DNA of 41,916 nucleotides. Source: a virus. The position numbers were made by a program, and so were the translations under genes. The notes below the pieces were generated by a model, which made no database searches, was not told the DNA's origin, and was given only the letters and a program-made list of their open reading frames with translations. Shown one piece after another: positions 1,843 through 27,068 of the stretch. Location: the UHGV virus genome UHGV-0385690. The stretch is one strand, 5' to 3'. Position 1 is the first letter of the stretch. Each line of letters starts with the position of its first letter.

Positions 1843-1905
1843 AATTTTACCTCTCTTTCTGCTGTTTCAAGGGCAGCTCCTTTATTATTCAAAATAGCAA
1901 TTTAG
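1843..1905 (-). promoter_or_regulatory. upstream cassette copy B
   Basis: ctctctttctgctgtttcaagg(g)cagctcctt...aaaatagcaat is shared with copy A. Confidence 0.4.
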
Positions 1906-3533
1906 CGATAATAAACGACAAAGCTGAAATTTGATTTATTATCTGCTGCGTTTATAAAAACAGAATTTATCGCAATTGTACTGGTGATGGCTATAACTAT
2001 TTTTACATCCCAACCAGATGCGTCACGACCACAACCAGTCATCCAATTACCAGTGTTTTTGCCAATCTCTGCTTTTAATATATTGACACCACATGTATAT
2101 GCGTAATCCGAAGTACGGTAAATCTTAATCATCAACTCATTATATTTTTCGGGTAACGGGCAAGTATCTGTGGCCTTGTATGTACCATTTAATTTCCATT
2201 CTAAATTGCTATTTGCAGTAACAATATCGTCCGTATTCTTCTTTACTTTGGCCGCCAGTGAGCCGGCAACATTTGGATTCATCTGCCGCGCATCCGCCAC
2301 AAATCCCTCTTCCGTAACCAGGCCCGTATTATTGATACTAGACGTTGCAATGTATCCGCTTAATATCTCAGCCAACCTGGAATTGCTCACCAATTCCAGC
2401 GCAACCTTTTGCGCCAACGCATCAAGCAACGCCTGCACATTGCTTGTTCCATCCGCTTCTCCTAATAATCCTTGTTCATCTACGGCCGAAACCGAGGATG
2501 CCTTGCCATTAAAACCACCCAGCCCCTGTGCAATCTGCTTTGCTTCCTCAGCGCTTCTCTCTGCCTCAGTTGCTTTATTCGTTGCTGTTGCGGCCGCCTG
2601 GCTGGCCGTATTCGCACTTTGATTGGCGGCTGTAGCGCTTCTTTCTGCCTCTGTTGCTCTGGTTGTTGCCGTATTAGCCGCCTGGCTGGCTGTATTCGCA
2701 CTTTGGTTGGCGGCCGTGGAGCTTGCCCCTGCTGCTTCTGCTTTAGCAGTCGCTGTGGCGGCCGCCTGGCTGGCTGTGTTCTCGCTCCGGCTGGCGGCTG
2801 TAGCGCTTCTTTCTGCCTCTGTCGCTCTAGTTGCTGCCGTATTGGCCGCCTGGCTGGCTGTATTCGCGCTTTGGTTGGCGGCTGTGGAGCTAGCCTCTGC
2901 TGCTTCTGCCTTAGCAGTCGCCGTGCTGGCCGCCTGTGTTGCTTCCTCCGCCTTTTCCGTCGCCTTTTCCAATGTTGTATTGGCTTTCGCTATGGCTGTC
3001 TCTGCCTGCCGCTGCCATTCAGCCTCATTGTTTACCCTTTGTTCTTCATTGGCTTTGCGCTGTTCCTCTGCTTCCTGTCTTTTACTCTCGTTAGCATCCA
3101 GTGTTTCTGCCTTTTGAGTAATTCGTTCCTCCAGCTGTTCAAATTCGGCAAGGTGGCCTTTGTATGCTTCCCCATCAAATATCGTGTGTCCTACGTACAC
3201 GGCCCCTGGATTCGTAGCCCATTTGATGGTTCCATTTTCATCATATGCGCGAACAGCTATCCAGACTGTACCTTTATGAGACACACATGCGGCCGGGATG
3301 CTCCAGGTCAGCAGGATATACGCTTCTTGCGTTTCTGCGTCGAGCAGGCAGGTATCCAGTATGGCATCCTCATATTCCAAATCAAGCTTGAAGCGCAGGT
3401 TAGCCAGGTCCACACCGCCCGCCGTGATGCGGTTCAGCCTGATATGGCGCACCTCCGAGTTATTATCGTACGTCGTCCCTATCTGGCTATCCTTTTCAGG
3501 AATAACAAGTTTTCTACCTACTACCGTAATCAC
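1902..3533 (-). CDS. fiber-like structural protein: N-terminal globular domain, long Ala/Thr/Ser/Asn/Glu-rich repetitive coiled-coil stalk, C-terminal globular (receptor-binding-like) domain
   Basis: 543-aa ORF with 28-aa repeats such as NQSANTASQAANTAATRATEAERSATAA, encoded by 84-bp tandem DNA repeats. It lies between the head genes and the lysis genes. Confidence 0.55.
   Translation of the reverse strand: MITVVGRKLVIPEKDSQIGTTYDNNSEVRHIRLNRITAGGVDLANLRFKLDLEYEDAILDTCLLDAETQEAYILLTWSIPAACVSHKGTVWIAVRAYDENGTIKWATNPGAVYVGHTIFDGEAYKGHLAEFEQLEERITQKAETLDANESKRQEAEEQRKANEEQRVNNEAEWQRQAETAIAKANTTLEKATEKAEEATQAASTATAKAEAAEASSTAANQSANTASQAANTAATRATEAERSATAASRSENTASQAAATATAKAEAAGASSTAANQSANTASQAANTATTRATEAERSATAANQSANTASQAAATATNKATEAERSAEEAKQIAQGLGGFNGKASSVSAVDEQGLLGEADGTSNVQALLDALAQKVALELVSNSRLAEILSGYIATSSINNTGLVTEEGFVADARQMNPNVAGSLAAKVKKNTDDIVTANSNLEWKLNGTYKATDTCPLPEKYNELMIKIYRTSDYAYTCGVNILKAEIGKNTGNWMTGCGRDASGWDVKIVIAITSTIAINSVFINAADNKSNFSFVVYYR
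2593..2930 (-). repeat. tandem 84-bp repeats (at least 4 copies, phase-preserving, 28 aa each) inside the fiber gene
   Basis: gccgcctggctggc recurs at 2593, 2677, 2761 and 2845, with flanking conserved sequence. Confidence 0.8.
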
Positions 3534-3549
3534 CCCGTCTGCTCCTTCC

Positions 3550-3786
3550 TTATCCCTGAATCAGTTCAACCTGCTTTGCCTTTTCCATAACTTCCTCGGT
3601 TACTCTTGTCTGGTCATTTGAATTCATGATTACCTCATAGACAGACCTGGGAATTTCTACTTCCTTTCCGCGTTCTATCAGGTATGATTTTCCATTCACC
3701 CCAACAAACAGCGGGGCCTTATAGCGGTCTCCATCCCAGAACAAGGTGAACTTTACCATTTCTTCCTTCTTTGTTGCTGCCATCAT
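3550..3786 (-). CDS. small protein after the major capsid gene (head completion or decoration?)
   Basis: Start ATGATG at 3786, preceded by a GGAGGT RBS directly after the major capsid stop. Product MMAATKKEEMVKFTLFWDGDRYKAPLFVG... Confidence 0.45.
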   Translation of the reverse strand: MMAATKKEEMVKFTLFWDGDRYKAPLFVGVNGKSYLIERGKEVEIPRSVYEVIMNSNDQTRVTEEVMEKAKQVELIQG

Positions 3787-8066: not shown

Positions 8067-9578
8067 TTACACTCTTATAACACGGCTCCTACGCTCCCGC
8101 TCTTCTTTGTATAGGTCAAGTGGATCTTCAAGAGGCAGTGGTTTTTCCCTGTGCTTACGGATTGCTATGATACGCGACATAAGCACATATCTGCATTCAT
8201 CATAAATATGGTCCTCCTGCTTTGTATCTACGTCCTCCACGTTTTCTTCGTCATATACAAGGTTAGGTACCGTACGAATGAAATCTTTGCAATTCTTAAA
8301 CACATAAAACATAGAGCGTCCATGTTCGTCAAAAGCCATACGATAATGACACTGCATCTTTCCAGCAATTCTATGGTTATCGCCAGGCACCCAATATACG
8401 CCCAGATTCGCCATAGTATCTGCTATGGACGGCCCTCGGTCCTTTGCAAATATGGACGGGTCTGCAATCCCTGTGATTCTCCTTCCTTTCAGGTTCGGGT
8501 CTGTTTCTTCAATGGCGCGAATCTGTCTTGCCACTTCTGCCGGCTGTATTTTAATTCCTACATTGGGGCTGTCCTTCTTCATTCCGTATAACTCCCGTAT
8601 TCGATAAATACATCCAGTATAATCCACTGCGAACCATCCAACCGAAAACGGTTTTGCATAACCATGGTCATATCCACGCATGATTTCCCATCCTTCCGGT
8701 ATCTTGAACGGGTTAATTACATGGCTCCATTGCTGCGTATCATATCCATCCTGGTCATTTTTCCATTCTTCAAATACCTGACCGTTAAAGGAATTCCAGT
8801 CTCCTTCTAACAATGCCCTACGTTCCGCCTCAGGCATCATTGCTAGGGATGCTACATAATCCGGATTATTACGTATCAGGTCCGGATTATCAAATACTTT
8901 ACTTTGAATGAAAATTCGGTCCCTGGTGCTCCGTATGATGTCTCCATTTGGTCCCTTCACTTCCTTGGTTTCTACAATTGGCGTCCCTGGTTTGGCTGGT
9001 GTAATGAATCTTGCTTTTACCCATCCATGGCCCGGTCCGCCTGGATTAGCTGTGGAACGTATGTACTTACGTAACCCCGGCGCGCTTGAACGCGTGCGGG
9101 AGAACATATAGTTATATTCATCCCAGGTGAAATGGGTCAATTCATCAAACCCTACAAAATCAAAATGCCTGCCCTGATATTTTGTGCGGTCTTTTGTATG
9201 CTGCATCGAACTGAAATATATCTTGGCTCCGCTTGGGAAAGTCCATCTATGACTACTCACATTATATTTCGCTTTTGGGTATGCACCCGCATACAGCTCT
9301 AAGGACCGGTTGATTAAGTCCTCCAGCTCCGGATATGTCTTTCGAAATATGACAGCCCTATAAGCTTTTATATGTACCTGTCTCAATGCCTCAACTAATA
9401 GATAATCTGACTTACCTCCTCCAGCAGCTCCGCCATACAAGCCTTCAAACTCCATCCGACACATCATAGCTAGCTGTCTTGCTGATGGAGCCCAGAGGAT
9501 GTTGTGGGTCTGGACAAATTCTTTTGCGTCAAATGCTTTCTGTTTCTTTTCACTCTGTAACTTGCTGTTCTTTTTCAC
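8067..9578 (-). CDS. terL: terminase large subunit
   Basis: Walker A motif GGAAGGGKSD, an ATPase core, and C-terminal nuclease-type acidic motifs. Overlaps the terS 3' end. Confidence 0.8.
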   Translation of the reverse strand: MKKNSKLQSEKKQKAFDAKEFVQTHNILWAPSARQLAMMCRMEFEGLYGGAAGGGKSDYLLVEALRQVHIKAYRAVIFRKTYPELEDLINRSLELYAGAYPKAKYNVSSHRWTFPSGAKIYFSSMQHTKDRTKYQGRHFDFVGFDELTHFTWDEYNYMFSRTRSSAPGLRKYIRSTANPGGPGHGWVKARFITPAKPGTPIVETKEVKGPNGDIIRSTRDRIFIQSKVFDNPDLIRNNPDYVASLAMMPEAERRALLEGDWNSFNGQVFEEWKNDQDGYDTQQWSHVINPFKIPEGWEIMRGYDHGYAKPFSVGWFAVDYTGCIYRIRELYGMKKDSPNVGIKIQPAEVARQIRAIEETDPNLKGRRITGIADPSIFAKDRGPSIADTMANLGVYWVPGDNHRIAGKMQCHYRMAFDEHGRSMFYVFKNCKDFIRTVPNLVYDEENVEDVDTKQEDHIYDECRYVLMSRIIAIRKHREKPLPLEDPLDLYKEERERRSRVIRV

Positions 9579-10101
9579 TTTGTTCCTGTGCCACCTCCAT
9601 CAACTTTTTAATTTCATCGGCCTGCTCTGTTCCCATCACAATCAAACCAACCCCGTTTTCATCTTCTATGTTGCTATTTTTAATTTCCTCACATCTCTTG
9701 CGCCATTCCGGCATCCGGTTCTCCAACCAGAATACAATGGCTTTTGTATCCCCATCTACATGCACAGTCTCCTCTGCGTATTCAATCACTTCATCCTCTT
9801 TTACTTTTTTGCCGTTCTCATACGTTATATGTCTTGTTTTGATGGGTTTTTTATTTGTCACCGTGTACCCAAGAGCCGCCCTATATAGGCTATTCTCCAC
9901 AAGGCGGTCTGCATAATCCTTCCCCGTTGACAATGCTTCACCTATTTTTTCATGTTTCTTTTTCCACTCCCCCAGGGTGGAGCGGCTTATCCCTACCAAT
10001 TTGGCTATTTCATCGTCAGTTTTCCCAGCCCTGGCCCAGGCCGCCAGAATAGTAAGCTTATCCTTGTTCTCTGCCCATTCCTGCCATTTCTGTCTTGCCA
10101 T
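9550..10101 (-). CDS. terS: terminase small subunit
   Basis: 183 aa with an N-terminal HTH (DDEIAKLVGISRSTLGEWKK) and an AAGGAGG RBS, directly upstream of terL. Confidence 0.7.
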   Translation of the reverse strand: MARQKWQEWAENKDKLTILAAWARAGKTDDEIAKLVGISRSTLGEWKKKHEKIGEALSTGKDYADRLVENSLYRAALGYTVTNKKPIKTRHITYENGKKVKEDEVIEYAEETVHVDGDTKAIVFWLENRMPEWRKRCEEIKNSNIEDENGVGLIVMGTEQADEIKKLMEVAQEQSEKEQQVTE

Positions 10102-10229
10102 TCCACACCTCCTTGAAGGCTATTATACGCGTTCCATTTTTTTGAATCCAACACCCCAAACTCTGGTCGATTTTGTCCGGTTTTCACCACACAAAAAAGA
10201 CGCCGAACGCGTCAGTTCATTCCGATTCT

Positions 10230-10264
10230 CGCGCGCGTGCGCATACACATGTGCGTGTGCGCGC
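10230..10264. repeat. 35-nt perfectly alternating pyrimidine/purine tract (cgcgcgcgtgcgcatacacatgtgcgtgtgcgcgc), quasi-palindromic around CACATGTG
   Basis: Read directly from the sequence. It lies in the gap between the Rep-like gene and terS. Confidence 0.8.
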
Positions 10265-10285
10265 CTTCTGGTGTCCGGTTTTGTC

Positions 10286-10612
10286 TTAACTTCCATCCCC
10301 GGTCCTTTGGTAGATTGCTTTATAGTACGGGCAAGTGTCGTACATATCGGCACAAAACAGCTCCTGATAATTTTTCTTTTCTTCATGGCTTGTAAACTCC
10401 AGCTTATTCCTGACTTCAAACCCCAGGTTATTTTCTATGTTCTCACAGGTAATGGTTGGAGATTTTTTATTATACCGGCTGACCGTTATACAATATGGGC
10501 ATCGTACCTCTTTCTTTTGGCGCACCCTCTCACATCCCTTCTTTACGCATACCAAACGGCAGCCCTTATCTGGACCGCTTTTTCTTTTGTTGTCGCTTTG
10601 CGGCCTTGTCAT
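10286..10612 (-). CDS. Cys-rich small protein (possible zinc-binding protein)
   Basis: ORF with CRLVCVKKGCERVRQKKEVRCPYC. Its start is uncertain. It overlaps the 3' end of the Rep-like gene in another frame. Confidence 0.25.
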   Translation of the reverse strand: MTRPQSDNKRKSGPDKGCRLVCVKKGCERVRQKKEVRCPYCITVSRYNKKSPTITCENIENNLGFEVRNKLEFTSHEEKKNYQELFCADMYDTCPYYKAIYQRTGDGS

Positions 10613-11372
10613 GGGCGGCCATATGGTAACCCGGTAACAATACAAGGGTGTATTCCAGGAATTCATAACCATTTTCCTGTATACCCGATTGTATGGTCTC
10701 TTTTTCCAGATAATATCCTTCTGGTACCTCAATGGCTCCTGGATCTATCCGTCTGCGTTTTCTAACTTTGGCTTTTTCCGGTTCTGGGCGTACCAGATTC
10801 TGAGATGGGTTATATCGCTTCCCCTGTAACCTTCCCTCTGTCCGCATAGTCTTATCTGAATATTTGATAAAATAAGCGGCCAACTTATGATAGCTCCCAC
10901 TCTCATCCATTGGTATTGCATTAATCCATCCATGGGGCCACGCTGCTTTTAATTCCCTTACATCTATTCCACCTGACTGAACCATATGTATATGCTCTGC
11001 ACCACGCTCTCCACGTTCGCCTACCCAGATATACTTTAAACGGATACCCGCCCTTCGATAGAGCTTCCTCAGCTGTTTTAAAAACTGCTTTACATAGGCT
11101 CTAAATTTTTTTGGTTCCCCCGGCCTCTTGTTCTTTTCAAAACTATATGTTACATACAGGTCAGCCCCAGAAAAATTCGCATCCATGATCCATGTCAAGG
11201 TACGGTATGCGTTTTTACGGTTTACCTCTGCCTGTTTCTCGCTGGTGGGCTTTTCCCGCTTTGCCCGCCTTTCTTTCATCCCTGTCAGTTTTCCATCGTT
11301 ATATTTCGCTGAATAATACGCACGGATGTTCTTAGTTCTCCCCGCATAGCATACACTTTCTATACACGCCAT
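10566..11372 (-). CDS. rolling-circle replication initiator-like protein (HUH superfamily, gpA-type)
   Basis: HUH motif AEHIHMVQ followed by a double-tyrosine motif AAYFIKYSDK (Y-x-x-K-Y-x-x-K), as in phiX174/P2 gpA-type Rep. Basic C-terminal tail. Confidence 0.45.
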   Translation of the reverse strand: MACIESVCYAGRTKNIRAYYSAKYNDGKLTGMKERRAKREKPTSEKQAEVNRKNAYRTLTWIMDANFSGADLYVTYSFEKNKRPGEPKKFRAYVKQFLKQLRKLYRRAGIRLKYIWVGERGERGAEHIHMVQSGGIDVRELKAAWPHGWINAIPMDESGSYHKLAAYFIKYSDKTMRTEGRLQGKRYNPSQNLVRPEPEKAKVRKRRRIDPGAIEVPEGYYLEKETIQSGIQENGYEFLEYTLVLLPGYHMAAHDKAAKRQQKKKRSR

Positions 11373-11409
11373 TAGCCATTTACTCCCATCCTATGATCTC
11401 TCCCCCTGG

Positions 11410-11432
11410 AAACCAGGGGGAGGTTCTTATCT
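11410..11432. promoter_or_regulatory. perfect 10-bp stem / 3-nt loop hairpin (ctccccctgg-aaa-ccagggggag) 40 bp upstream of the Rep start; candidate origin or nick-site hairpin
   Basis: Read directly. A second hairpin gcgggg-acattg-ccccgc lies at 11453..11470. Confidence 0.4.
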
Positions 11433-11505
11433 TAATAAACTTATCGAGTTGGATGCGGGGACATTGCCCCGCTCATTTTCCCCGCAAGCTGTAAATATAT
11501 GTAAA

Positions 11506-12552
11506 TTATGCTGCCTTGTTTCTTACTACCCTCAGCGTGTCTGGGGTCGACTGCGCATAATATAATGAAGTCACTCTCGAATCTGCATGTCCCATAATCT
11601 CCTGTATTGTTCCTATGTCAACGCCTTTGTTCTTCAGTTCCATTCCCAGAGTTTTCCGCATTTTATGCGGATACACCCTGCTTGTTACACCGGCCCGCTT
11701 TGCTATGTCCTTAAGAATACCTCGTACGGCGCATGTAGATAATGCCTGATGCGGCTCCTTAGAGCTTACAAATATGGCTGGGTTATGATCTGTCCTGCTA
11801 TTCAGATATTTCCTATAATGATAGATAGCGTCCGGGTCCAGATACAATGTGCGGTATCGGTTGCCCTTCTCGCCTAAAATCATTACGTCTCCTGTCTCCC
11901 AATTAACCAGGTCAATTGTAATTGCAACTACCTCGCCTACTCTGGCTCCGGTACTACGCAATACCTCCAGTATGGCTCGCTCCCTCAGGCTTTCACAGCC
12001 ATCTTTCAATCGTGCCATCTCTTCCGGTGTGAAATAGTCAATCGGCTTTTTGGTAACCTTCTGCGGCTCGATTGCTTCAACCGGATTTGCACTAATCAGC
12101 TTTTCTTTACGCATCCAGGTAAAAAATGCGGAAAGAAACCGGCGCTCATTATTGATAGTCTTTGGTTGGTTCTTTCGTCCTGTTTGCGAAACGTTCTTGT
12201 GTTCGTACCAGTCAAGGTAATAATAAATGTCTGGTTCTTCCATTTCGGTCAATGGTTTATATACCAAAGTGACCAAGCGCTTAATAGCACTTACATAACC
12301 ATACTTTGTCCCCTCTGCTAATTTCTTCTTTTTATATAGGAAGAGTTGCAATATGTATCCGTTCTGATTATCTATGCTGTCTTTCATTTCCATTGGCAGC
12401 GTATTAATCCTCTCAATCACTACGTCAACCAGATTCTTTGTTAGCACTCTTTCCAGCATTTCTAGCACGTCACTGCTCAGATAGTACGTCATTGCCACAA
12501 TTACGTTATTAATAATTTCCGCTTTTACACTCTGATTATCTGTATTACTCAT
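11506..12552 (-). CDS. tyrosine recombinase (phage integrase family), second copy
   Basis: R...HxxR...Y catalytic pattern: RSTGARVGEV, HKMRKT, GHADSRVTSLYY. N-terminal core-binding-type domain. Confidence 0.75.
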   Translation of the reverse strand: MSNTDNQSVKAEIINNVIVAMTYYLSSDVLEMLERVLTKNLVDVVIERINTLPMEMKDSIDNQNGYILQLFLYKKKKLAEGTKYGYVSAIKRLVTLVYKPLTEMEEPDIYYYLDWYEHKNVSQTGRKNQPKTINNERRFLSAFFTWMRKEKLISANPVEAIEPQKVTKKPIDYFTPEEMARLKDGCESLRERAILEVLRSTGARVGEVVAITIDLVNWETGDVMILGEKGNRYRTLYLDPDAIYHYRKYLNSRTDHNPAIFVSSKEPHQALSTCAVRGILKDIAKRAGVTSRVYPHKMRKTLGMELKNKGVDIGTIQEIMGHADSRVTSLYYAQSTPDTLRVVRNKAA

Positions 12553-12617
12553 AACCCTTCCTCCTTCGTATTGCTTAAGGAATCAGAATATGGTATACTG
12601 TCCTTAAGCGTAAGGGC

Positions 12618-12668
12618 GGTACAGATAACTTTGGTCGGTTGATGTACCGCCCGTTTTCTTTTCTCCTG
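12618..12668 (+). terminator. rho-independent terminator-like hairpin (gggcggtaca-n19-tgtaccgccc followed by gttttcttttct)
   Basis: Perfect 10-bp stem followed by a T-run on the plus strand. Confidence 0.4.
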
Positions 12669-12711
12669 TCTGGTGTTCTACGATTTCCATTGCTATCACC
12701 TCTTTCTCGTT

Positions 12712-12775
12712 TTCTTCGAATGGGCTGTCATGGATTCGAACCATGCCGCTAGGAGTAATTCAGCGGCCCCGATGG
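12712..12775 (-). other. tRNA-like element lacking a D-arm (candidate tRNA-derived att site)
   Basis: Minus strand reads GGGCTGT-TG-CCATCGGGG-CCGCT-GAATTACTCCT-AGCGG-CATGG-TTCGAAT-CCATG-ACAGCCC-A. It has a 7-bp acceptor stem and a consensus T-arm GGTTCGAATCC, but a 5-bp stem with an 11-nt loop, no D-arm, and no encoded CCA. Confidence 0.4.
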
Positions 12776-12790
12776 CAACAGCCCTATGTG

Positions 12791-13081
12791 CTATATGACC
12801 AGTATCCAACCAACTAAGTTCACATCGTGCTTTTCAATGCTTACAAGTTCTATATCCTCCATTAATTCTTTTACTGTTTTCTTGATTGGCACCTGTTCAA
12901 CGATTTTTTCAGCAGTTAACTCTGCCTGCTCTTTTAGCAAATCATTGACTTCATCACGCTGTCCTTTTCTCACTTCTTTTGGCATAAGCAAATAAGAACC
13001 ATATGCCTTCCCCGGATACCTTTCTGTCAATATCTTCACTATCTCACTCCATCTGGTTTCAACTTCATGCATCTTTTCCAT
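12791..13081 (-). CDS. hypothetical protein (96 aa)
   Basis: ORF downstream of the RHH gene in the same orientation. Confidence 0.4.
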   Translation of the reverse strand: MEKMHEVETRWSEIVKILTERYPGKAYGSYLLMPKEVRKGQRDEVNDLLKEQAELTAEKIVEQVPIKKTVKELMEDIELVSIEKHDVNLVGWILVI

Positions 13082-13132
13082 TTGCTCCTTTAACTTCTAA
13101 ATATCAGTTTTGTTGTGTAATAATACTTATCG

Positions 13133-13318
13133 TTACGCAACATTATCATTAAGATACTTGTCCAGGGCCTGCCGGATTACCCAGCTTATGGCCCTGTCCT
13201 CCTTCTGGCAGAAGGCGGTTACCCGTTTCAGTTGCTCCGGGTCCATGCTTATATTCTGCCGGATATACTTTTTATCGGTTTCTTTCTTCGGTCGTGCCAT
13301 ACTTCCGCCTCCTTTCAA
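13133..13318 (-). CDS. ribbon-helix-helix (CopG/Arc-type) DNA-binding protein
   Basis: 61 aa: PKKETDKKYIRQNISMDPEQLKRVTAFCQKEDRAISWVIRQALDKYL. Confidence 0.5.
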   Translation of the reverse strand: MKGGGSMARPKKETDKKYIRQNISMDPEQLKRVTAFCQKEDRAISWVIRQALDKYLNDNVA

Positions 13319-13619
13319 TTTCTACTTTACTTTTTTCTTTTCGTGGCCTATACTAACACTAAGCCAAGGAGAGTGAGTAACCCAAATTAATGAAGCGGCT
13401 AAAGAAGGAGATTGCTAATGCAATCTTCTTTTTTATTACAATCTCCTTTCATCTCTAAATGCTACTACAATGTATTTATGGGTAAAGTACACGACAGCCA
13501 GTCGTGTCTATATCCATCTTGTTGCTAAAGCTGTTAGAATAGAGAGTGCAATGGGCTGACGGCCAAAATGCTGGACTTTTCGTCCGTAAATTAGTCTGTC
13601 TGCCGGCCTCTCATTCGCA

Positions 13620-15030
13620 GCCGTTCGTTTTATGCAGGTTGAACTGCTGGTTACCAGTACGTCCGTGTCACACCACAGTAGATAGAATCGGCAATGAGTA
13701 AAGGTTGGGTTCCCATTACAAATCTAAATAAGGAGTTGGATCTATGAACGCAGTTGGTATTGATGTTTCTAAAGGTAAAAGTATGGTTGCTGCCCTCCGC
13801 CCGTTCGGCGAAATTGTTGCCAAGCCATTTGAAGTTCCGCATACTTCCAGTGGTTTCCATCAGCTAGTTGATCAGCTCAATTCTCTGGACGGTAGTACTC
13901 GGATTATCATGGAGCATACAGGACGGTATTACGAACCTATGGCCCGATGGCTCTCTGACTCTGGTTTCTTTGTCAGTACGGTTAATCCAAAGCTGATTAA
14001 GGATTACGGCAATAACACTCTCCGTAAAGTTAAAACAGATAAAGCTGATTCCGTTAAGATTGCACGCTATGCTCTTGACAACTGGCAGGATTTGCGCCAG
14101 TATACCAGTATGGATATCATTCGCAATCAATTAAAAACCATGAATCACCAGTTCAGCTTCTACATGAAACAGAAAACCTCTTACAAGAACAACCTCATCT
14201 CCCTGCTGGATCAGACTTACCCTGGCATTAATGACTTCTTTGACAGTCCTGCCCGCAGCGATGGCAGCCAGAAATGGGTAGACTTTGTTTCCTCATTCTG
14301 GCACGTGGACTGTGTGCGTTCTCTTGGGCTTGCTACGTTTACTGAGCGCTATCAAAAATGGTGCAAACGGCACGGCTATAACTTCCAACCAGAGAAACCA
14401 GCACAGATTTATTCGTTTTCCAAAGAACTGATTTCCGTGTTCACGAAAGACTCTGTGACTAAGTTTTTGGTTAAGCAGGCTGTGGAGCAGCTCAATACGG
14501 TATCTTTCACAGTGGAACAGCTCCGCCTGGAAATGAACCGTCTCGCCGCCCAACTGCCAGAGTATCAGGTAGTCATGGCCATGAAGGGGGTAGGCCCCTC
14601 ACTCGGCCCTCAACTTATGGCCGAAATAGGCGATCTCTCTCGCTTTTCCCATCGTGAAGCATTAACTGCATTTGCCGGTGTGGACCCTGGGGTCAATCAA
14701 TCCGGCACCTATGAGGCACGTAGTGTCCGTACATCCAAGCGAGGATCACCGCAGCTGCGCAAAACGTTGTTTCAGATCATGGACGTCCTAATTAAGTCCG
14801 CTCCTTCCGATGACGCTGTTTATCGCTTTCTGGACAAGAAACGTTCAGAAGGGAAGCCGTACTATGTCTACATGACTGCCGGTGCCAATAAGTTCCTGCG
14901 AATCTACTATGGCCGTGTGAAGGAGTATTTAGCTGCCTTACCCAAACCAGAATAACCTTGACTTAACATCCAATAGGCCAGCGTTTTACGGTGGTCTTTT
15001 TGTAGTTCCTAAACGCTGCATAAAACTTTT
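13620..15030 (+). mobile_element. IS110-family insertion sequence (about 1.4 kb)
   Basis: A DEDD-type transposase gene is flanked by an 11-bp inverted repeat: gttttatgcag at 13627..13637 and ctgcataaaac at 15017..15027. Coding runs opposite to every neighbouring gene. Confidence 0.6.
13744..14955 (+). CDS. IS110-family (DEDD) transposase
   Basis: N-terminal MNAVGIDVSKGKS...MEHTGRYYEP (DEDD/RuvC-like), a C-terminal transposase_20-like region, and an AAGGAG RBS. Confidence 0.8.
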   Translation: MNAVGIDVSKGKSMVAALRPFGEIVAKPFEVPHTSSGFHQLVDQLNSLDGSTRIIMEHTGRYYEPMARWLSDSGFFVSTVNPKLIKDYGNNTLRKVKTDKADSVKIARYALDNWQDLRQYTSMDIIRNQLKTMNHQFSFYMKQKTSYKNNLISLLDQTYPGINDFFDSPARSDGSQKWVDFVSSFWHVDCVRSLGLATFTERYQKWCKRHGYNFQPEKPAQIYSFSKELISVFTKDSVTKFLVKQAVEQLNTVSFTVEQLRLEMNRLAAQLPEYQVVMAMKGVGPSLGPQLMAEIGDLSRFSHREALTAFAGVDPGVNQSGTYEARSVRTSKRGSPQLRKTLFQIMDVLIKSAPSDDAVYRFLDKKRSEGKPYYVYMTAGANKFLRIYYGRVKEYLAALPKPE

Positions 15031-15074
15031 TTGCAAACTTCCTCAATTCTCTATTGACTTTTCATTTGCAGGCT

Positions 15075-17989: not shown

Positions 17990-18342
17990 GAATCGTTTTC
18001 CTCCTTCAGTCCTTTGTATGATTCTATCCATTTGGGCTCTATACAAAAACATCCTTCATGTTCATATTCATTTGATTCCCAGGCCGCTTCAAATCCTTCC
18101 CGGTCGTCAATAAATACCCCTGTCATACTATCCTGCTCCATCATATAGGCAAGTTCTTTATTCTTGCTTCTATCACACAGGCCAAGGAAAACATATTCTC
18201 CTTCCATGGCTGTGCTTTCGACAACATAGGCATTCTCTCCGTCCATATATTCAGCTATACTTTTCCATAACTCATAATCGGAATCTTCTGGATTATTTTC
18301 ATCAAACATGTGAGCTGTAGCCAGTTTTGCAATCTTTATCAT
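17986..18342 (-). CDS. hypothetical acidic early protein (118 aa)
   Basis: ORF with an ATGA overlap with its neighbour. Confidence 0.45.
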   Translation of the reverse strand: MIKIAKLATAHMFDENNPEDSDYELWKSIAEYMDGENAYVVESTAMEGEYVFLGLCDRSKNKELAYMMEQDSMTGVFIDDREGFEAAWESNEYEHEGCFCIEPKWIESYKGLKEENDS

Positions 18343-19421
18343 TCCTCTGCCACTCCCATTCGTTTAAACTGCCTATTTATACCACTTCTTGGGGCTCCAC
18401 CGTACAATCCAACGTTGTTTCGTTCTGTCGCCACCATCAATATATCCTGCAAAACAAGCAACTCATCTTCTGCAATACAACTCGCAACCAACATTAATTC
18501 CCTTAATGTGTATATGGCCCATTCCCTGGTAGACCATTCCTGTTTTTCCTCTTCTGACGGTTCCGGCTGATTCATAGCTGTATCTGTAAATCCTGTAGCG
18601 GTCATTTCTGCATTTTCTGCTGCTTTCTCTGCCTGTATCCCAGCCTGTGCAGCTGCAATTTGCGCATGTTCCGCCCGCTTTGCGGCCTTTTCAGCACGTT
18701 CTGCGGCCTTCTGAGCCTCCCTGATATCCTGCTTCTCTTTGACACGTTCTGAAATTTCTTTGTGGCGGACTTCCTTCCCCTCTGCCGCAGCAGCGGCAAT
18801 TTCCTTTTGTTCCTCTGCCGGAAGTTTTGCAGTCTCATATGCAGCAGTTTTTCCTATTGTTCCTGCCTTAAACTGTTCCTTTGCCTCTGGCACCAAGCCA
18901 TTGTTTATTTTATCCATCCTTGCCACCTGGGTCTTGCTGGTCTTAAGGATATCCGCAACAATATCCCGCATTTTTCCCTTTATAATTATCCCATCTTCTT
19001 CTCTGGCCCGTATAAGGGCCGCTTTCAAACGAGCAGCTTGCTCTGTTTCTTCATATGGGGTAAGTTTGCGGTTAAAGGCATTTCCAATAATAAGGGACAA
19101 CTCAAATAGGGCAGATGTCATTTCTTTATAGAGGTATCTCGCCTTGTAGTCCCTGGGAAGCGCCCCGCATTCTATGTTATGTATATTGGCGAGATTCCTT
19201 CTATGGCCGCTTATAATTTTGTACACGCCATCTACCTGTCCAAGTACAGTCGGCTGCTGTTGTCCTACCGTAAGCATAGAATCTGCCAGCTCCTCGATAT
19301 TCTCCTGACTATAAAAATTGCTTTCTGATGGTTCCACCTCATAAGGACTCAAATAAATTTCCTTAAAATCCGGATCTGACGGTTCCACGGTATTTAATAG
19401 TTCTTTAAATGACCACGACAT
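18339..19421 (-). CDS. ParB/Srx-domain protein with a long Ala/Glu/Lys-rich coiled-coil
   Basis: VLGQVDGVYKIISGHRRNLA (ParB N-terminal GxxRxxA-type motif) followed by a helical KAAERAEKAAKRAEHAQIAAAQ region. Confidence 0.6.
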   Translation of the reverse strand: MSWSFKELLNTVEPSDPDFKEIYLSPYEVEPSESNFYSQENIEELADSMLTVGQQQPTVLGQVDGVYKIISGHRRNLANIHNIECGALPRDYKARYLYKEMTSALFELSLIIGNAFNRKLTPYEETEQAARLKAALIRAREEDGIIIKGKMRDIVADILKTSKTQVARMDKINNGLVPEAKEQFKAGTIGKTAAYETAKLPAEEQKEIAAAAAEGKEVRHKEISERVKEKQDIREAQKAAERAEKAAKRAEHAQIAAAQAGIQAEKAAENAEMTATGFTDTAMNQPEPSEEEKQEWSTREWAIYTLRELMLVASCIAEDELLVLQDILMVATERNNVGLYGGAPRSGINRQFKRMGVAEE

Positions 19422-19431
19422 TGTTCCCCTC

Positions 19432-19746
19432 CTATAGATAGCTTTCTCCAAAACGCAACCTGAATTCACTCCTTGCCATTTCTTCTGTTAACCCACAGGC
19501 AACTTCATGTTTTTCCCATGCAAGCTGTCCGGCTATTTTGGATAGTTTCTCAGCCATTGGGTTCTCATGTATGCGTTCAAGGACATCCCCCATGTTATGG
19601 CATTTATTGCAGCACGGAATTTTTATTCCATCATCCTCTGCCTTATCACGGTTCCCTTTCCCCCATATAAGATGATGTTGTGCTTCTGTCGGCTTCCCGC
19701 AAAACACGCAATAATCGTTATACTCTGTCACAATGCCCTTGCTCAC
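19432..19746 (-). CDS. HNH-type zinc-finger nuclease (GTG start)
   Basis: C-x2-C ... HH ... N ... C-C-N-K-C-H, seen as CVFCGK..AQHHLIWGKGN..IPCCNKCHN. An AGGAGG RBS lies 7 nt before the GTG. Confidence 0.55.
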   Translation of the reverse strand: MSKGIVTEYNDYCVFCGKPTEAQHHLIWGKGNRDKAEDDGIKIPCCNKCHNMGDVLERIHENPMAEKLSKIAGQLAWEKHEVACGLTEEMARSEFRLRFGESYL

Positions 19747-20542
19747 AGGTTATCCTCCTATATTCTTCAACAAATTTTCGATAACTGACTGCTGCCGCAC
19801 TTCTTGGGCTGTATTCCTCCAGCGGCTTCCCCACCATTATGCTTTCAGCCACTTTTTCGCTGTACCGTATTTTTTCCTTAAACATCTTATATCCCTGGTC
19901 CTGTAACCATTCAACACCAGCTACATTAGTATCGTTATTACGATACATTGTGACCAGGATTCCAAGTAGTTTTATTCCCGAGTTTCGCTCCCTGCATTCT
20001 GATATTTGGTTCTTGATAGTTTCCAGTCCATCTAACGCCCACTGGTCCAGTTTCACCGGCACAATTACATCATCAGTGACCATTAGTGCATTTATTACAT
20101 TAATCCCCATATCTGGAGGATTATCTATAATAATATAATCGTATGGCTTTCCATCCTCTGTCCTGGCATTATGCAATGTCTCAAACTGCCCCACTTTCTC
20201 CCCTAATTTACCCATCAACTGGTATGTGGACGTCAGCAGGGACATATTGGCATTCACCACCCCCAGGCCCGGCTCATCCGTAAATCTCATGATTTTATTC
20301 ACATCCCGCCCTGCCAGAAGCTGGGCCGTGCCGCACATATGGTCCTCTGCATGATACCTTCCCATGGCTTGGCTCAGATTCCCCTGCTTATCATTGTCCA
20401 CCAGCAATACGCTCTGTCCGTATCTATGGTGCAATATGTATCCCATTTCAAGGGCTGTCATGGTTTTTCCAACTCCACCCTTTAAATTGATTATGCTTAT
20501 AATCCTCACTATCTTCCTCCTAAAATACATGTGGATCTCCAC
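19718..20542 (-). CDS. parA: ParA/Soj-family partition ATPase
   Basis: Deviant Walker A IISIINLKGGVGKT and ParA-like length. Confidence 0.8.
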   Translation of the reverse strand: MEIHMYFRRKIVRIISIINLKGGVGKTMTALEMGYILHHRYGQSVLLVDNDKQGNLSQAMGRYHAEDHMCGTAQLLAGRDVNKIMRFTDEPGLGVVNANMSLLTSTYQLMGKLGEKVGQFETLHNARTEDGKPYDYIIIDNPPDMGINVINALMVTDDVIVPVKLDQWALDGLETIKNQISECRERNSGIKLLGILVTMYRNNDTNVAGVEWLQDQGYKMFKEKIRYSEKVAESIMVGKPLEEYSPRSAAAVSYRKFVEEYRRITCEQGHCDRV

Positions 20543-24300: not shown

Positions 24301-25521
24301 ATGAGTGAATTATTAATATTATCCATGATATTTTCAATATGCCTTTTTTTCCTTGCAAACAAGAAAAAGGTTAATTCTAATAGTAAATCAGAAGATATTC
24401 TGAATGTGAAAATTAAGCAATTGGAATTAAGCCTTGAAACTTCCCTTACTGAAAACAAAAATCTCGCCGCTCATAAAATGAGATTGCTCAAAGATTTGGA
24501 ATCTCAATTAGAGAAATATAATGCTTTGCTTTCTGATTATAACAAACTAACGTGTGATTTAAATACATATATTGAACATCGTAATGACGATTTGAAAAAT
24601 ATTTTCTCAAACTGTGACCACGCCTTTTCGTATGTTGCAACTTTATATGCAGATTATCTTCTAGTGGATTATGAAAATGCCAGCAAATATCTGTTAAACA
24701 AAAAAAGGCCAGCCACCTCTGAAGGGCTTAGAATAGGAGCCTTAAAACTTCAAACAAAATCTTATTTGGTTGAGCTCAATAAAACAAAATACCAATTAAA
24801 TTATCTGCTAAATTTATATCCAGAACTAGAAGATTTTATTGAATCTGACGATGACGGAGACAGGGAAGAAGCAGCTCGTTCTAACGATAAAATACCTGAT
24901 GATACATGGCGTTCTCTATCTGAATCTCAAAAAAGCCAATTGCTACTTACAAATTACTTAAATCGGCGCAAGAGTAAGTGGGAAATTGGACGTGACTATG
25001 AACTGTATGTTGGTTATAAATATAGTTTGCAAGGTTATTCTGTCGATTATTTTGGTTCCTATAATGGTTTGGAAGATTTAGGGAGAGATTTGATTGTCAA
25101 AAAGAAGGGGGAGACTGGCATTATCCAATGCAAATATTGGTCCTCAAAAAAGCAAATACACGAAAAACACATTGCTCAGCTATATGGAACTGTCGTGAGT
25201 TATATAATAGAGAATAATTATATTCCTTCTTTGGTTCATGGAATCTTTATAACGAATATATCCTTATCTGATACTGCAAAAAAATTTGCAGATTTTTTGG
25301 ATATTAAATATAAAGAAAACTATCCCATTGGTGAATTTCCACGTATCAAATGTAATATTAGCAAGGATGAATATGGTAATGAAACTAAAATATATCATCT
25401 TCCTACTGACCAGCAATATGATAACGTTAAAATAGAGCATACAGGAGAATGCTTTGCCTTTACAGTAGATGAAGCGGAAAAATTAGGTTTTCGTCACGCC
25501 TACAAATGGCATAATAAATGA
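24301..25521 (+). CDS. membrane-anchored coiled-coil protein with a C-terminal Mrr-cat/NERD-like PD-(D/E)xK nuclease domain (candidate defence or abortive-infection gene)
   Basis: N-terminal TM LLILSMIFSICLFFLA, coiled-coil from about aa 30 to 110, and a C-terminal GRDYELYV...GY.V...GLEDLGRDLIVKKKGETGIIQCKYW (D...D-x-K core). Confidence 0.55.
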   Translation: MSELLILSMIFSICLFFLANKKKVNSNSKSEDILNVKIKQLELSLETSLTENKNLAAHKMRLLKDLESQLEKYNALLSDYNKLTCDLNTYIEHRNDDLKNIFSNCDHAFSYVATLYADYLLVDYENASKYLLNKKRPATSEGLRIGALKLQTKSYLVELNKTKYQLNYLLNLYPELEDFIESDDDGDREEAARSNDKIPDDTWRSLSESQKSQLLLTNYLNRRKSKWEIGRDYELYVGYKYSLQGYSVDYFGSYNGLEDLGRDLIVKKKGETGIIQCKYWSSKKQIHEKHIAQLYGTVVSYIIENNYIPSLVHGIFITNISLSDTAKKFADFLDIKYKENYPIGEFPRIKCNISKDEYGNETKIYHLPTDQQYDNVKIEHTGECFAFTVDEAEKLGFRHAYKWHNK

Positions 25522-25621: not shown

Positions 25622-25651
25622 CGCCCATTTCTGCAATGGGCGTAATTTTTT
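25622..25651 (+). terminator. intrinsic terminator-like hairpin (cgcccat-ttctgca-atgggcg followed by taatttttt) between the nuclease gene and int
   Basis: Read directly. Confidence 0.45.
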
Positions 25652-25671
25652 ACCCTTATGGAGGAAATAAT

Positions 25672-27024: not shown

Positions 27025-27029
27025 ATCAA

Positions 27030-27068
27030 AAAGAAAAGAACCCCTATCGGAGTTCTTTTCTTTTTGAC
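27030..27068. terminator. hairpin gaaaagaac-n10-gttcttttc followed by a T-run, after int
   Basis: Perfect 9-bp stem. Confidence 0.5.

What the first reader, a model, noticed from the sequence alone, without database searches (positions are those of the whole stretch)
11506..12775. Second tyrosine recombinase next to a D-arm-less tRNA-like element: an extra int/att-like module inside the phage
The phage already has int plus attP at 25.7-27.2 kb. This second recombinase (RSTGARVGEV...HKMRKT...LYY) lies 160 bp from a 64-nt element with a perfect 7-bp acceptor stem (GGGCTGT/ACAGCCC), a consensus T-arm (GGTTCGAATCC), and a 5-bp stem with an 11-nt loop, but no D-arm. The tRNA-like, then int arrangement is the classic left end of tRNA-targeting islands. 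It could be a second attachment specificity, a remnant of a piggy-backing satellite or island (together with the Rep gene), or a dimer-resolution system for a plasmid-state prophage (compare ParAB). A strong plus-strand terminator separates the element from the recombinase.
Basis: partly seen in the sequence, partly recalled or inferred. Interest (0 to 1): 0.6.

Follow-up and report, generated by a model that had tools for sequence, protein, structure and literature searches.

The report
Antisense-gated phage recombinase with tRNA mimic
Besides its normal integrase, this gut-bacterium phage carries a second, intact DNA recombinase that is a conserved internal phage gene; a small antisense RNA gene sits in its leader and, in this lineage only, a folded tRNA look-alike lies upstream, so it is a regulated core gene and not a second attachment module or a satellite remnant.

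Summary
The recombinase ORF (11506-12552, minus) is intact and keeps all catalytic residues. The tRNA-like element exists, but at 12721-12784 (minus), about 9 nt beyond the stated end. The plus-strand terminator is real.

The int/att reading is not supported:
- No tRNA gene in 185,579 species genomes shares the element's 22-nt 3' half.
- The element carries both acceptor strands and keeps its pairing through compensatory changes across four sequence variants. A covariance model finds it only in the closest, Enterocloster-phage, clade.
- The recombinase lies inside related phages, between early genes and the terminase genes. In an E. citroniae prophage it is 10 kb from the end that carries the canonical integrase.

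All clades (37-100% protein identity) share a leader cassette. It holds a convergent sigma-70 promoter (57 of 58 distinct leaders, none on the sense strand) driving a roughly 57-nt antisense RNA. The "terminator" is the hairpin of that RNA: 99.5% of cells paired, 7 of 9 pairs with double changes. Its loop has a conserved UUGG motif.

Best reading: a Xer/Cre-type core phage recombinase under plasmid-style antisense control. The tRNA mimic is probably an RNase P/Z processing or stability signal. The recombinase's DNA target is still unknown.

The parts
11506..12552 (-). Second tyrosine recombinase (348 aa), Xer/Cre-type, catalytic residues intact
   Evidence: PF00589 and PF13495. Below the XerA/C/D equivalog cut-offs. 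R199, K229, H296, R299, H322 and Y331/Y332 are conserved. The AlphaFold model has mean pLDDT 81; its best fold matches are XerA, the Brujita integrase and XerD.
12553..12720 (-). Leader (5' UTR) of the recombinase mRNA; the recombinase Shine-Dalgarno GGAGG lies at 12560-12564
   Evidence: The sequence itself. The cassette is conserved in all clades.
12573..12609 (-). Hairpin 2 of the sense leader (arms 12573-12581 and 12601-12609). Its loop carries the -10 element of the antisense promoter.
   Evidence: There are 16 distinct stems. Their non-Watson-Crick pairs are 4 G.U on the sense strand and 0 on the antisense strand.
12571..12599 (+). Antisense promoter: -35 TTGCTT (12571-12576), 17-nt spacer, TGn (12591-12593), -10 TATACT (12594-12599)
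   Evidence: 57 of 58 distinct leaders carry TTGnnn-17/18-(TGn)TATAMT on the antisense strand; none carries it on the sense strand.
12606..12662 (+). Predicted cis-antisense RNA of about 57 nt: short 5' tail, long hairpin with a UUGGUC apical loop, then a U-run
   Evidence: Model R2 finds exactly one copy per locus, always antisense to and just upstream of the recombinase start. There is one copy in the window (60 bits).
12614..12652 (+). Its complement is the target in the sense leader.
   Evidence: 99.5% of cells are paired, 7 of 9 pairs show changes on both sides, and slid controls give 21-55%. The wobble pairs fit the antisense strand 11 to 2.
12604..12690 (-). Leader ORF (28 aa, MEIVEHQTGEKKTGGTSTDQSYLYRPYA) with the strong SD GAGGTG at 12697-12702. 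It reads through the antisense-RNA target and stops at a TAA inside the 5' arm of hairpin 2.
   Evidence: In this clade the ORF stays in frame through at least 6 different N-terminal versions (26-34 aa). It is absent in the Lacrimispora-type and the 37%-identity classes.
12721..12784 (-). D-arm-less tRNA-like element: 6-7 bp acceptor stem, GG-containing linker, central hairpin, T-arm, discriminator A, no encoded CCA
   Evidence: Not called by ARAGORN or matched to the Rfam tRNA family.
12791..13081 (-). 96-aa ORF of unknown function. Its stop codon lies 6 nt upstream of the tRNA-like element.
   Evidence: Present in part of the clade only.
13099..13110 (-). AAACTGATATTT, a sense-strand boundary motif that marks the upstream edge of the cassette in relatives
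13133..13318 (-). CopG-type ribbon-helix-helix protein upstream in the same orientation; a possible transcriptional regulator
   Evidence: PF01402. Also found upstream in L004, L009 and L031.
11373..11505 (-). Origin-like region belonging to Rep, not to the recombinase: two GC-rich hairpins (11399-11423 and 11455-11472) flanking CCAACTCGATAAG
   Evidence: It is conserved together with Rep and absent where Rep is absent.
10566..11372 (-). Rolling-circle Rep (HUH motif HIH; 268 aa)
   Evidence: PF23343 and phrog_3584.

Best explanation
The region is a regulated core gene of a temperate Lachnospiraceae (Enterocloster-type) siphophage, not an att module.

Shown:
- The gene encodes a catalytically intact, simple Xer/Cre-type tyrosine recombinase.
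- It sits at the junction of the early/replication genes and the packaging genes throughout a large phage family.
- Its leader holds a convergent promoter and a covarying terminator hairpin. Together they specify a roughly 57-nt cis-antisense RNA complementary to the leader about 60-115 nt upstream of the start codon.
- In this clade a translated-looking 28-codon leader ORF crosses that target.
- The tRNA-like element is a structurally conserved, clade-specific tRNA mimic embedded in the same sense transcript.

Inferred:
- The antisense RNA, made constitutively (for example in lysogens), pairs through its UUGG U-turn loop with the leader and keeps recombinase synthesis low. It could do so by blocking leader-ORF translation and coupled initiation, and/or by RNase III cleavage of the duplex, as in the R1 CopA/tap, ColIb-P9 Inc and IS10 RNA-OUT systems.
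- A burst of sense transcription during lytic growth titrates the antisense RNA.
- The tRNA mimic is cut by RNase P at its 5' end and by RNase Z after the discriminator. This separates the leader mRNA from the upstream early transcript and gives it a defined 5' end next to a strong Shine-Dalgarno sequence, much as t-elements do in plant mitochondria.
- The enzyme most likely manages phage genome topology, cyclising the genome or resolving multimers of a Rep/ParA-equipped replicon. It does not serve integration.
For: Recombinase identity and intact active site.

Internal, syntenic position:
- In 78 viral loci and in Lachnospiraceae genomes.
- In an integrated E. citroniae prophage, 10 kb from the integrase end and followed by Rep, TerS, TerL and portal.

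Antisense RNA:
- Antisense promoter in 57 of 58 distinct leaders against 0 on the sense strand.
- Predicted antisense RNAs in all classes fold as a hairpin followed by a U-run.
- Hairpin covariation: 99.5% paired, 7 of 9 pairs with double changes, 32 cells, no shuffle reaches the observed value.
- Wobble pairs favour the antisense strand for hairpin 1 (11 to 2) and the sense strand for hairpin 2 (4 to 0).
- Model R2 finds one hit per locus, in untrained loci as well, and none at distant Xer or hsdS-shufflon recombinases.
- Weak resemblance of the loop and tail to the pT181 ctRNA.

Leader ORF: kept in frame through indels.

tRNA mimic:
- Covariation, with G.U pairs on the sense strand.
- Always at the same place, upstream of the leader.
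- No host tRNA with this 3' half.

Precedents from papers: t-elements processed by RNase P/Z (PMC1920247). The UUGGCG loop motif, leader-peptide control and attenuation systems are cited in PMC3753616 and PMC10724649.
Against: - There are no expression data. The promoter, transcript ends and processing are sequence inferences.
- In this clade's minimum-energy fold the recombinase Shine-Dalgarno sequence is already unpaired, so how pairing 60-115 nt upstream lowers translation is unclear.
- The leader ORF is absent in two classes, so it cannot be the universal mechanism.
- The tRNA mimic is dispensable. It is missing from relatives at 85-86% identity and from all other clades.
- The central hairpin of the window's own variant carries uncompensated changes in L003, L005 and L007. 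Partial decay of a former phage tRNA gene therefore cannot be excluded.
- No recombination site was found. There is no conserved lox/dif-like site and no rearrangement among relatives.
- The closest plasmid homologs are DNA invertases of type I R-M shufflons, which points away from resolution.
Confidence: 0.6

Rival explanations
1. Second attachment module. The tRNA-like element is an attP copied from a host tRNA, and the recombinase integrates the phage, or a former satellite together with Rep, at that tRNA.
For: A tRNA-like sequence next to a tyrosine recombinase is the classic island arrangement. The T-arm is a 5-bp inverted repeat around 7 bp, like a core site. Some simple integrases lack arm-binding domains; the Brujita integrase is a top fold match.
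Against: - There are zero exact matches of the 22-nt 3' half in 185,579 species genomes.
- The element has both acceptor strands and shows compensatory changes and sense-strand G.U pairs.
- It is absent from most homolog loci.
- The gene lies inside prophages that have a separate terminal integrase.
- Rep is optional after it.
Confidence: 0.05
2. The tRNA-like element is a decaying phage tRNA gene with no present function. It merely sits between two genes in a region where these phages often carry tRNAs.
For: - Relatives carry real and odd tRNAs nearby: tRNA-Ser in L012, and a two-T-arm element scoring 26 bits.
- The central stem of variant A has uncompensated changes.
- The element is lost in L140 and L141 with no obvious replacement.
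- A phage tRNA-Lys shares the ACAGCCCA 3' end.
Against: - Four strongly diverged variants all keep a 6-bp acceptor stem, a 5-bp T-stem (98% paired, with AU->GC and UA->CG changes), an invariant GGTTCGA in the T-loop (GGTTCGAnTCC in all but L011), a GG in the linker and discriminator A.
- The position next to the leader is fixed even where the upstream gene is replaced (L006, L028).
Confidence: 0.2
3. The recombinase is a DNA invertase or shuffling enzyme (a phase-variation switch, or cassette exchange) rather than a resolvase or cyclase.
For: - The closest plasmid-borne homologs (30-35% identity over nearly the full length, N-terminus included) sit inside type I R-M hsdS shufflons.
- The early region upstream is a hypervariable array of small genes whose mosaic junctions fall on a 12-nt motif.
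- Tight antisense control is typical of enzymes whose activity is risky.
Against: - No inverted-repeat pair of a suitable kind occurs in the 42-kb window.
- No inverted segments are seen among near-identical relatives within +-4 kb.
- There are no hsdS genes.
- The 12-nt motif lacks dyad symmetry and flanking conservation, so it is too short for a tyrosine-recombinase site.
Confidence: 0.15
4. Hairpins 1 and 2 are DNA-level sites (a lox-like recombination site or an operator) rather than RNA elements, and no antisense RNA is made.
For: Both are inverted repeats directly next to the recombinase gene, as loxP is to cre and difSL to xerS (own knowledge). Hairpin 2 spans the spacer of the putative promoter, as an operator would.
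Against: - Arm spacing ranges from about 3 to 19 bp for hairpin 2 and is 17-24 bp for hairpin 1, not 6-8 bp.
- Wobble pairs are strand-specific.
- The stems covary freely while a promoter and a U-run stay in fixed register.
Confidence: 0.07

Closest known systems
Antisense-RNA control of plasmid replication initiators: R1 CopA/CopT/tap, ColIb-P9 Inc RNA/repY-repZ, pT181 ctRNA, pMV158 RNAII with CopG
   Same: - A convergent constitutive promoter inside the leader.
- A short antisense RNA that is essentially one long hairpin doubling as its own terminator.
- A U-turn type UUGG(N)CGG loop, like the 5'-UUGGCG-3' motif (cited).
- A leader ORF crossing the target, as with tap and repY.
- A CopG-type RHH gene upstream.
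- Stems that differ between lineages, like incompatibility groups.
   Different: - The controlled gene is a phage tyrosine recombinase, not a Rep.
- There is no U-run after hairpin 2, so pT181-type attenuation is unlikely.
- The Rfam ctRNA_pT181 score is 20 bits against a gathering score of 56.
- The leader ORF is not universal.
- No pseudoknot partner was found.
IS10/Tn10 RNA-OUT control of transposase
   Same: A DNA-rearranging enzyme held at low level by a small, stable cis-antisense hairpin RNA made from a promoter inside the element. The logic is multicopy inhibition and protection against read-through transcription.
   Different: RNA-OUT covers the transposase Shine-Dalgarno and start codon. 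Here the target lies 60-115 nt upstream of the start. The sequences are unrelated.
t-elements of plant mitochondria and other RNase P substrates embedded in mRNAs or phage regulatory RNAs (P1/P7 c4, P4 CI; the latter from own knowledge)
   Same: An incomplete tRNA fold (acceptor stem plus T-arm retained) sits between coding regions and serves as an endonucleolytic punctuation mark (PMC1920247).
   Different: Cleavage has not been shown here. The host is a Bacillota phage. The element is optional within the family and is replaced by plain GC hairpins or by nothing in sister clades.
Extra Xer-like tyrosine recombinases in Bacillota phages (for example Tyrovirus gp19/gp50/gp175) and P1 Cre
   Same: A phage carries a Xer/Cre-type recombinase in addition to, or apart from, its lysogeny integrase, in a lytic-cycle transcription context. 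Dimer resolution or cyclisation is proposed but not proven (PMC9703825).
   Different: In Tyroviruses a site of 11-bp arms around a 6-bp core lies next to the gene. No such site was found here. The antisense-RNA leader and the tRNA mimic are not reported there.
hsdS-shufflon tyrosine invertases of type I R-M loci
   Same: They are the nearest annotated homologs outside phages: 30-35% identity, the same length, and a shared N-terminal extension.
   Different: There are no hsdS genes or inverted repeats here, and the antisense-RNA model does not hit those loci.

Membership tests
Canonical tRNA gene | Cloverleaf with a D-arm and a 7-nt anticodon loop; recognised by tRNA finders and Rfam RF00005 | tested here: not met
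   ARAGORN finds 0 genes. There is no RF00005 match at E<=10. The D-arm is replaced by an 11-nt linker and the central loop is 9-11 nt.
tRNA-derived phage attachment site (attP) | Sequence identity with the 3' part of a host tRNA gene | tested here: not met
   The 22-nt T-loop-to-discriminator string has 0 matches in 185,579 species genomes. Limit: only exact matches in one genome per species were searched, and the actual host strain is not known.
tRNA-derived phage attachment site (attP) | Lies with its integrase at the prophage end; usually only the 3' fragment of the tRNA is present | tested here: not met
   The recombinase is 10 kb inside the E. citroniae prophage and mid-contig in viral contigs. 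The element has both acceptor strands, unlike the fragment at 27105-27150.
Tyrosine recombinase superfamily (PF00589) | Catalytic R-K-H-R-H/W-Y residues and the two-domain C-clamp fold | tested here: met
XerC / XerD / XerA / XerS / integron integrase equivalogs | Score above the NCBIfam curated cut-off | tested here: not met
   XerA 164 against a cut-off of 220; XerD 126 against 330; XerC 112 against 335; IntI 64 against 265.
Lambda-type integrases with an arm-binding domain | N-terminal beta-sheet arm-type DNA-binding domain | tested here: not met
   In the model the N-terminal 150 residues are all helical.
Recombinase-fold phage repressors (YopR/MrpR, SroF) | Recombinase fold used for DNA binding, with an impaired active site (own knowledge) | tested here: not met
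   They appear among the fold matches, but here the active-site residues are invariant across the family.
cis-antisense RNA control cassette | Convergent promoter within the leader of the controlled gene | tested here: met
   57 of 58 distinct leaders carry it; 0 on the sense strand. This is sequence evidence only.
cis-antisense RNA control cassette | Structured antisense RNA ending in an intrinsic terminator, its structure kept by covariation | tested here: met
cis-antisense RNA control cassette | The transcript exists and represses the target | not testable with these tools
   This needs RNA-seq or a Northern blot, plus reporter assays.
Rfam ctRNA_pT181 (RF00242) | Gathering score of 56 bits | tested here: not met
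   20.1 bits, E = 7.8. The resemblance is limited to the AACUUUGGUC loop and the U tail.
t-element-like processing signal | Acceptor stem stacked on a T-arm with a T-loop consensus | tested here: met
t-element-like processing signal | Cleavage by RNase P and RNase Z at the tRNA-like ends | not testable with these tools
   No transcript-end data are available.
hsdS-shufflon invertases | Embedded among hsdS genes that carry inverted repeats | tested here: not met
   The window has no hsdS genes and no suitable inverted repeats. The homologs' own context is seen.

The most novel reading that the evidence does not exclude
The conserved leader RNA (and, in this clade, the tRNA mimic) might not be only a regulator. 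It could work with the recombinase. One version is an RNA cofactor or guide. Another is that the enzyme drives exchange of small early-gene cassettes at the 12-nt AAACTGAnATTT boundary motif, where mosaic junctions pile up directly upstream of the recombinase cassette. That would amount to an integron-like gene-shuffling system in gut phages. My data do not exclude this. They speak against it in three ways: the motif is short and asymmetric, the conserved loop of the antisense RNA is the same in lineages that would need different specificities, and no second site was found.
Probability: 0.04. Interest if true: 0.85.

Novelty: new variant of a known kind. Interest (0 to 1): 0.5.

Why it matters
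Many temperate phages of gut Lachnospiraceae carry this second recombinase: 434 protein clusters at E<=1e-20, found in Enterocloster, Lacrimispora, Hungatella and C. scindens phages. It is routinely annotated as 'integrase', which misleads prophage-boundary and lifestyle predictions.

The gene turns out to be internal, catalytically intact and placed behind a plasmid-style antisense-RNA switch. That defines two RNA families absent from Rfam and gives concrete, cheap experiments. It also raises a specific open question: what does a tightly throttled Cre/Xer-like enzyme do at the early-late junction of an integrating phage?

The tRNA mimic would be an unusual bacterial/phage case of tRNA-like mRNA punctuation (P1/P7 c4 and P4 CI RNAs are RNase P substrates). 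It is also a warning that tRNA-like sequences beside recombinases are not always att sites.

Tried and rejected
- ARAGORN and Rfam (gathering and E<=10) on the window gave no tRNA, tmRNA or other family. The only weak hits were ctRNA_pT181 and, by chance, PYLIS/snoRNA.
- Near and distant DNA search of 10100-13400 against GenBank phages found no match.
- Exact search for a host tRNA with the same 3' half found none.
- A degenerate T-arm/acceptor pattern in viral contigs returned only the same clade plus ordinary phage tRNAs scoring 23-27 bits, against 55-87 bits for the family.
- I looked for a recombination site in several ways: short-range inverted repeats, window-wide repeats, k-mers shared across classes, a dif-like reading of TGTAAATATATGTAAAT at the stop codon, and the 13+7+13 repeat at 11454-11486. 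All were rejected as not conserved or as belonging to Rep's origin region.
- I looked for inversions among relatives and found none.
- I tested whether the central loop of the tRNA mimic (CCUCC-like in variants A-C) pairs with the Shine-Dalgarno sequences. The match is inconsistent and absent in variant D, so I dropped the idea (reading).
- The tmRNA-like and type I toxin-antitoxin readings of the leader ORF were rejected. The peptide is hydrophilic with no Ala-rich tag, and G3.U70 occurs only in L009 and L139.
- PADLOC finds no defence-system match.
- Pseudoknot pairing of the hairpin 1 loop with the start region gives only 4 bp, so it is not claimed.
- A trans target for the antisense RNA elsewhere in the window was not found.
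Full report
1. What is in the sequence

The ORF at 11506-12552 (minus strand, 348 aa) is a tyrosine recombinase: PF00589 at E 6e-31 plus a SAM-like core-binding domain. NCBIfam places it nearest XerA, XerD and XerC but far below every equivalog cut-off. In an alignment of 38 homologs at 53-89% identity, R199, H296, R299, H322 and Y331/Y332 are invariant and K229 is nearly so. An AlphaFold model (mean pLDDT 81) shows an all-helical N-terminal half with two extra helices and no beta-sheet arm-binding domain. Its best solved matches are XerA, the simple Brujita integrase, the Tn1549 integrase, IntI and XerD. Recombinase-fold repressors (YopR/MrpR, SroF) also appear in that list, but the conserved active site argues for a working enzyme.

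The tRNA-like element is real. On the minus strand it runs from G1 at 12784 to C72 at 12722, with discriminator A at 12721. This is 9 nt beyond the finding's end coordinate. It has:
- a 7-bp acceptor stem;
- the T-arm CATGG-TTCGAAT-CCATG;
- a central stem CCGCT/AGCGG with an 11-nt loop;
- an 11-nt linker in place of a D-arm.

ARAGORN calls nothing in the window. Rfam gives no tRNA match even at E<=10. Its folding energy is only mildly unusual (z = -2.06).

The plus-strand terminator is also real: a 10-bp stem at 12614-12623 / 12643-12652 followed by GTTTTCTTTTCT.

2. Context

The window is a temperate siphophage. On the minus strand lie:
- TerL (8067-9578) and TerS (9550-10101);
- a rolling-circle Rep (10566-11372);
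- the recombinase;
- a 96-aa ORF and a CopG-type RHH protein;
- a Dam-type methylase;
- a weak ParB-like match (E 1e-4, below the Pfam cut-off) and ParA.

On the plus strand lie an IS110-family transposase, a repressor-like HTH protein and the main integrase (25636-27015). A bona fide att-type tRNA 3' fragment sits next to the main integrase.

3. Relatives

The recombinase has 78 relatives in viral contigs (37-100% identity). It has 434 protein clusters at E<=1e-20, named only 'tyrosine-type recombinase/integrase' or 'XerD', from Enterocloster citroniae, Lacrimispora and Hungatella. A 51% homolog lies in C. scindens phage phiCs5676-1.

In every case the gene sits inside the phage, after the early/replication genes and before the packaging genes. 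In an integrated E. citroniae prophage the order is integrase, repressor, early genes, methylases, this recombinase (10 kb in), Rep, a small protein, TerS, TerL and portal.

Rep follows the recombinase only in some clades. Elsewhere the next gene is a small sigma-r4-like protein or another small ORF. This rules out a satellite remnant and a terminal att module.

Rep brings its own upstream region: two GC hairpins flanking CCAACTCGATAAG. From my own knowledge this resembles the phiX174/pC194 nick site. The region is present only where Rep is present.

4. The element shared by all clades is a leader with an antisense RNA gene

Upstream of the start codon every class has, in order: an A-rich run, hairpin 1, a short linker, hairpin 2, and the Shine-Dalgarno sequence.

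On the opposite strand, 57 of 58 distinct leaders carry TTGnnn, a 17-18 nt spacer and (TGn)TATAMT. The -10 element lies in the loop of hairpin 2 and the -35 element in the conserved CAATAC. No leader has such a match on the sense strand.

Transcription from this promoter would give a roughly 57-nt RNA. It consists of a short tail, the complement of hairpin 1 with an inner stem and a UUGG-containing apical loop, and a U-run.

On a 23-sequence alignment covering eight stem classes, the 9-bp lower stem is paired in 99.5% of cells. Seven of nine pairs change on both sides (32 cells). No shuffle reaches these values, and slid controls give 21-55%. I trimmed these sequences to the hairpin, which favours pairing but not covariation.

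Non-Watson-Crick pairs are wobbles on the antisense strand for hairpin 1 (11 to 2) and on the sense strand for hairpin 2 (4 to 0).

A covariance model of the hairpin finds exactly one copy per locus, always antisense and 70-130 nt upstream of the recombinase start. This includes 20 loci not used to build the model. It finds nothing at distant Xer homologs or at hsdS-shufflon recombinases.

In the window the coordinates are:
- -35 element at 12571-12576;
- TGn at 12591-12593;
- -10 element at 12594-12599;
- transcription start near 12606;
- 3' end near 12660.

The loop is conserved (antisense UUGGUCGG / UUGGCGGG / UUGCCGG) while the stems differ completely. It recalls the 5'-UUGGCG-3' U-turn loop of IncI/IncB/R1 antisense RNAs (cited). 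It also explains the weak Rfam resemblance to the pT181 ctRNA.

5. Leader ORF

In the window's clade a strong SD (GAGGTG, 12697-12702) precedes a 28-codon ORF (12690-12604). The ORF reads through the antisense target and stops at a TAA in the 5' arm of hairpin 2. It stays in frame through at least six different N-terminal versions of 26-34 codons. Other classes have analogous ORFs, but two classes have none. Leader-peptide coupling therefore cannot be the whole mechanism.

In classes 5-7 the folds show alternative pairings in which the 3' arm of hairpin 2 can sequester the Shine-Dalgarno sequence. In the window's class the Shine-Dalgarno sequence is free in the minimum-energy fold.

6. The tRNA mimic

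Twelve distinct sequences fall into four variants that differ greatly in the middle. All keep:
- a 6-bp acceptor stem;
- a 5-bp T-stem (98% paired, with AU->GC and UA->CG changes);
- an invariant GGTTCGA in the T-loop (GGTTCGAnTCC in 11 of 12);
- a GG in the linker;
- discriminator A.

Overall 87.9% of cells are paired against 34-51% for slid partners, and RNAalifold predicts the same helices. The G.U pairs lie on the sense strand.

A covariance model finds the element only in the clade with recombinases of 87% identity or more, and always directly upstream of the leader. This holds even where the upstream gene is different, as in L006 and L028, whose homology to the window starts exactly at 12666. 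It is missing from relatives at 85-86% identity. In Lacrimispora-type phages a plain GC hairpin occupies the equivalent place.

The exact 22-nt 3' half matches no genome among 185,579 species. A degenerate pattern in viral contigs returns only this clade plus ordinary tRNAs.

The element is therefore a selected RNA fold, not an att site. An acceptor stem stacked on a T-arm is what RNase P and RNase Z recognise, and the lack of an encoded CCA with UU after the discriminator suits RNase Z (own knowledge). I therefore infer a punctuation or stability role like that of mitochondrial t-elements (PMC1920247). The uncompensated changes in the central stem of variant A and the element's dispensability keep 'decaying tRNA gene' alive as a rival.

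7. What the recombinase does is not settled

I found no lox/dif-like site next to the gene that is conserved across classes. I found no suitable repeat pair in the window, no inversion among relatives and no trans target of the antisense RNA.

The nearest plasmid homologs (30-35% identity) are hsdS-shufflon invertases.

Extra Xer-like recombinases of unresolved role are known in other Bacillota phages (PMC9703825).

Four things make genome cyclisation or multimer resolution my preferred guess, at about one chance in three: the simple Xer/Cre architecture, the position next to the packaging genes, the presence of Rep and ParA (with a weak ParB-like match), and the tight antisense control.

8. 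Verdict

The int/att and satellite interpretations are not supported. The dimer-resolution idea remains possible.

What is there is a conserved phage recombinase under plasmid-style antisense-RNA control, plus a lineage-specific tRNA mimic. Neither RNA is in Rfam.

It is a new variant of known kinds of system and of moderate interest.

Noticed in passing
window 13465-15071: An IS110-family insertion of 1607 bp, with its transposase at 13744-14955 on the plus strand. It is precisely absent from the otherwise near-identical relative L004, and the junction shows a 4-nt overlap. The 280-nt region upstream of the transposase contains nested inverted repeats (13400-13448) and could encode a bridge-type RNA.
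   Followed up: partly
window 13099-13110 (minus); many loci, e.g. L029 1913, L032 3281 and 3818, L043 3542 and 3818, L012 3738: A 12-nt sense-strand motif, AAACTGAnATTT, sits between a stop codon and the next Shine-Dalgarno sequence in the early regions of these phages. Identical upstream flanks are joined to different downstream genes exactly at the motif, and at least seven different upstream genes are joined to the same recombinase leader there. It is a hot spot of mosaic junctions, or a start-associated signal.
   Followed up: partly
window 11373-11505: The region upstream of Rep has two GC-rich hairpins flanking CCAACTCGATAAG (GACTTGATAAC in L004). This resembles the phiX174/pC194 rolling-circle nick site (own knowledge). 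It suggests that this 40-kb phage replicates from a Rep-nicked origin.
   Followed up: partly
window about 10286-10530 (minus): A small Cys-rich protein (CPYC...TITC...CPYY) is encoded between Rep and TerS. It is conserved in L010, L014 and L139, and no family matches it.
   Followed up: no
L012 1577-1666; also L030 about 3440-3550 and L042: A second odd tRNA-like element of about 90 nt has a 7-bp acceptor stem and two T-arm-like hairpins. It scores just below the Rfam tRNA threshold (26 against 29 bits).
   Followed up: partly
L009 1195-1270 and L139 9761-9835: Variant B of the tRNA mimic has a G3.U70 pair, the alanine identity element, in two independent sequences. Its sister L011 has G3-C70.
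   Followed up: no
window 27105-27150 (minus): A true att-type tRNA 3' fragment (variable region, T-arm GCCGG-TTCGAGT-CCGGC, 3' acceptor strand) lies just after the main integrase gene, with a hairpin at 27026-27067.
   Followed up: partly
window 18339-20542: A ParA ATPase gene (strong match) and a weakly ParB-like gene (PF02195 E 1e-4, 22.8 bits, below the 26.3 cut-off) sit in the early region of a phage that also has an integrase and an attP. The related E. citroniae prophage L139 shows no ParA or ParB Pfam hit in the listed stretch.
   Followed up: no
window 2530-2949: Four tandem 84-nt (28-aa) repeats lie inside the 543-aa ORF at 1902-3533, downstream of the capsid genes.
   Followed up: no
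window 24301-25521: A 406-aa protein with an Mrr-type restriction endonuclease domain is encoded between the repressor and the integrase. It is a likely moron or defence gene, but PADLOC does not match it.
   Followed up: no
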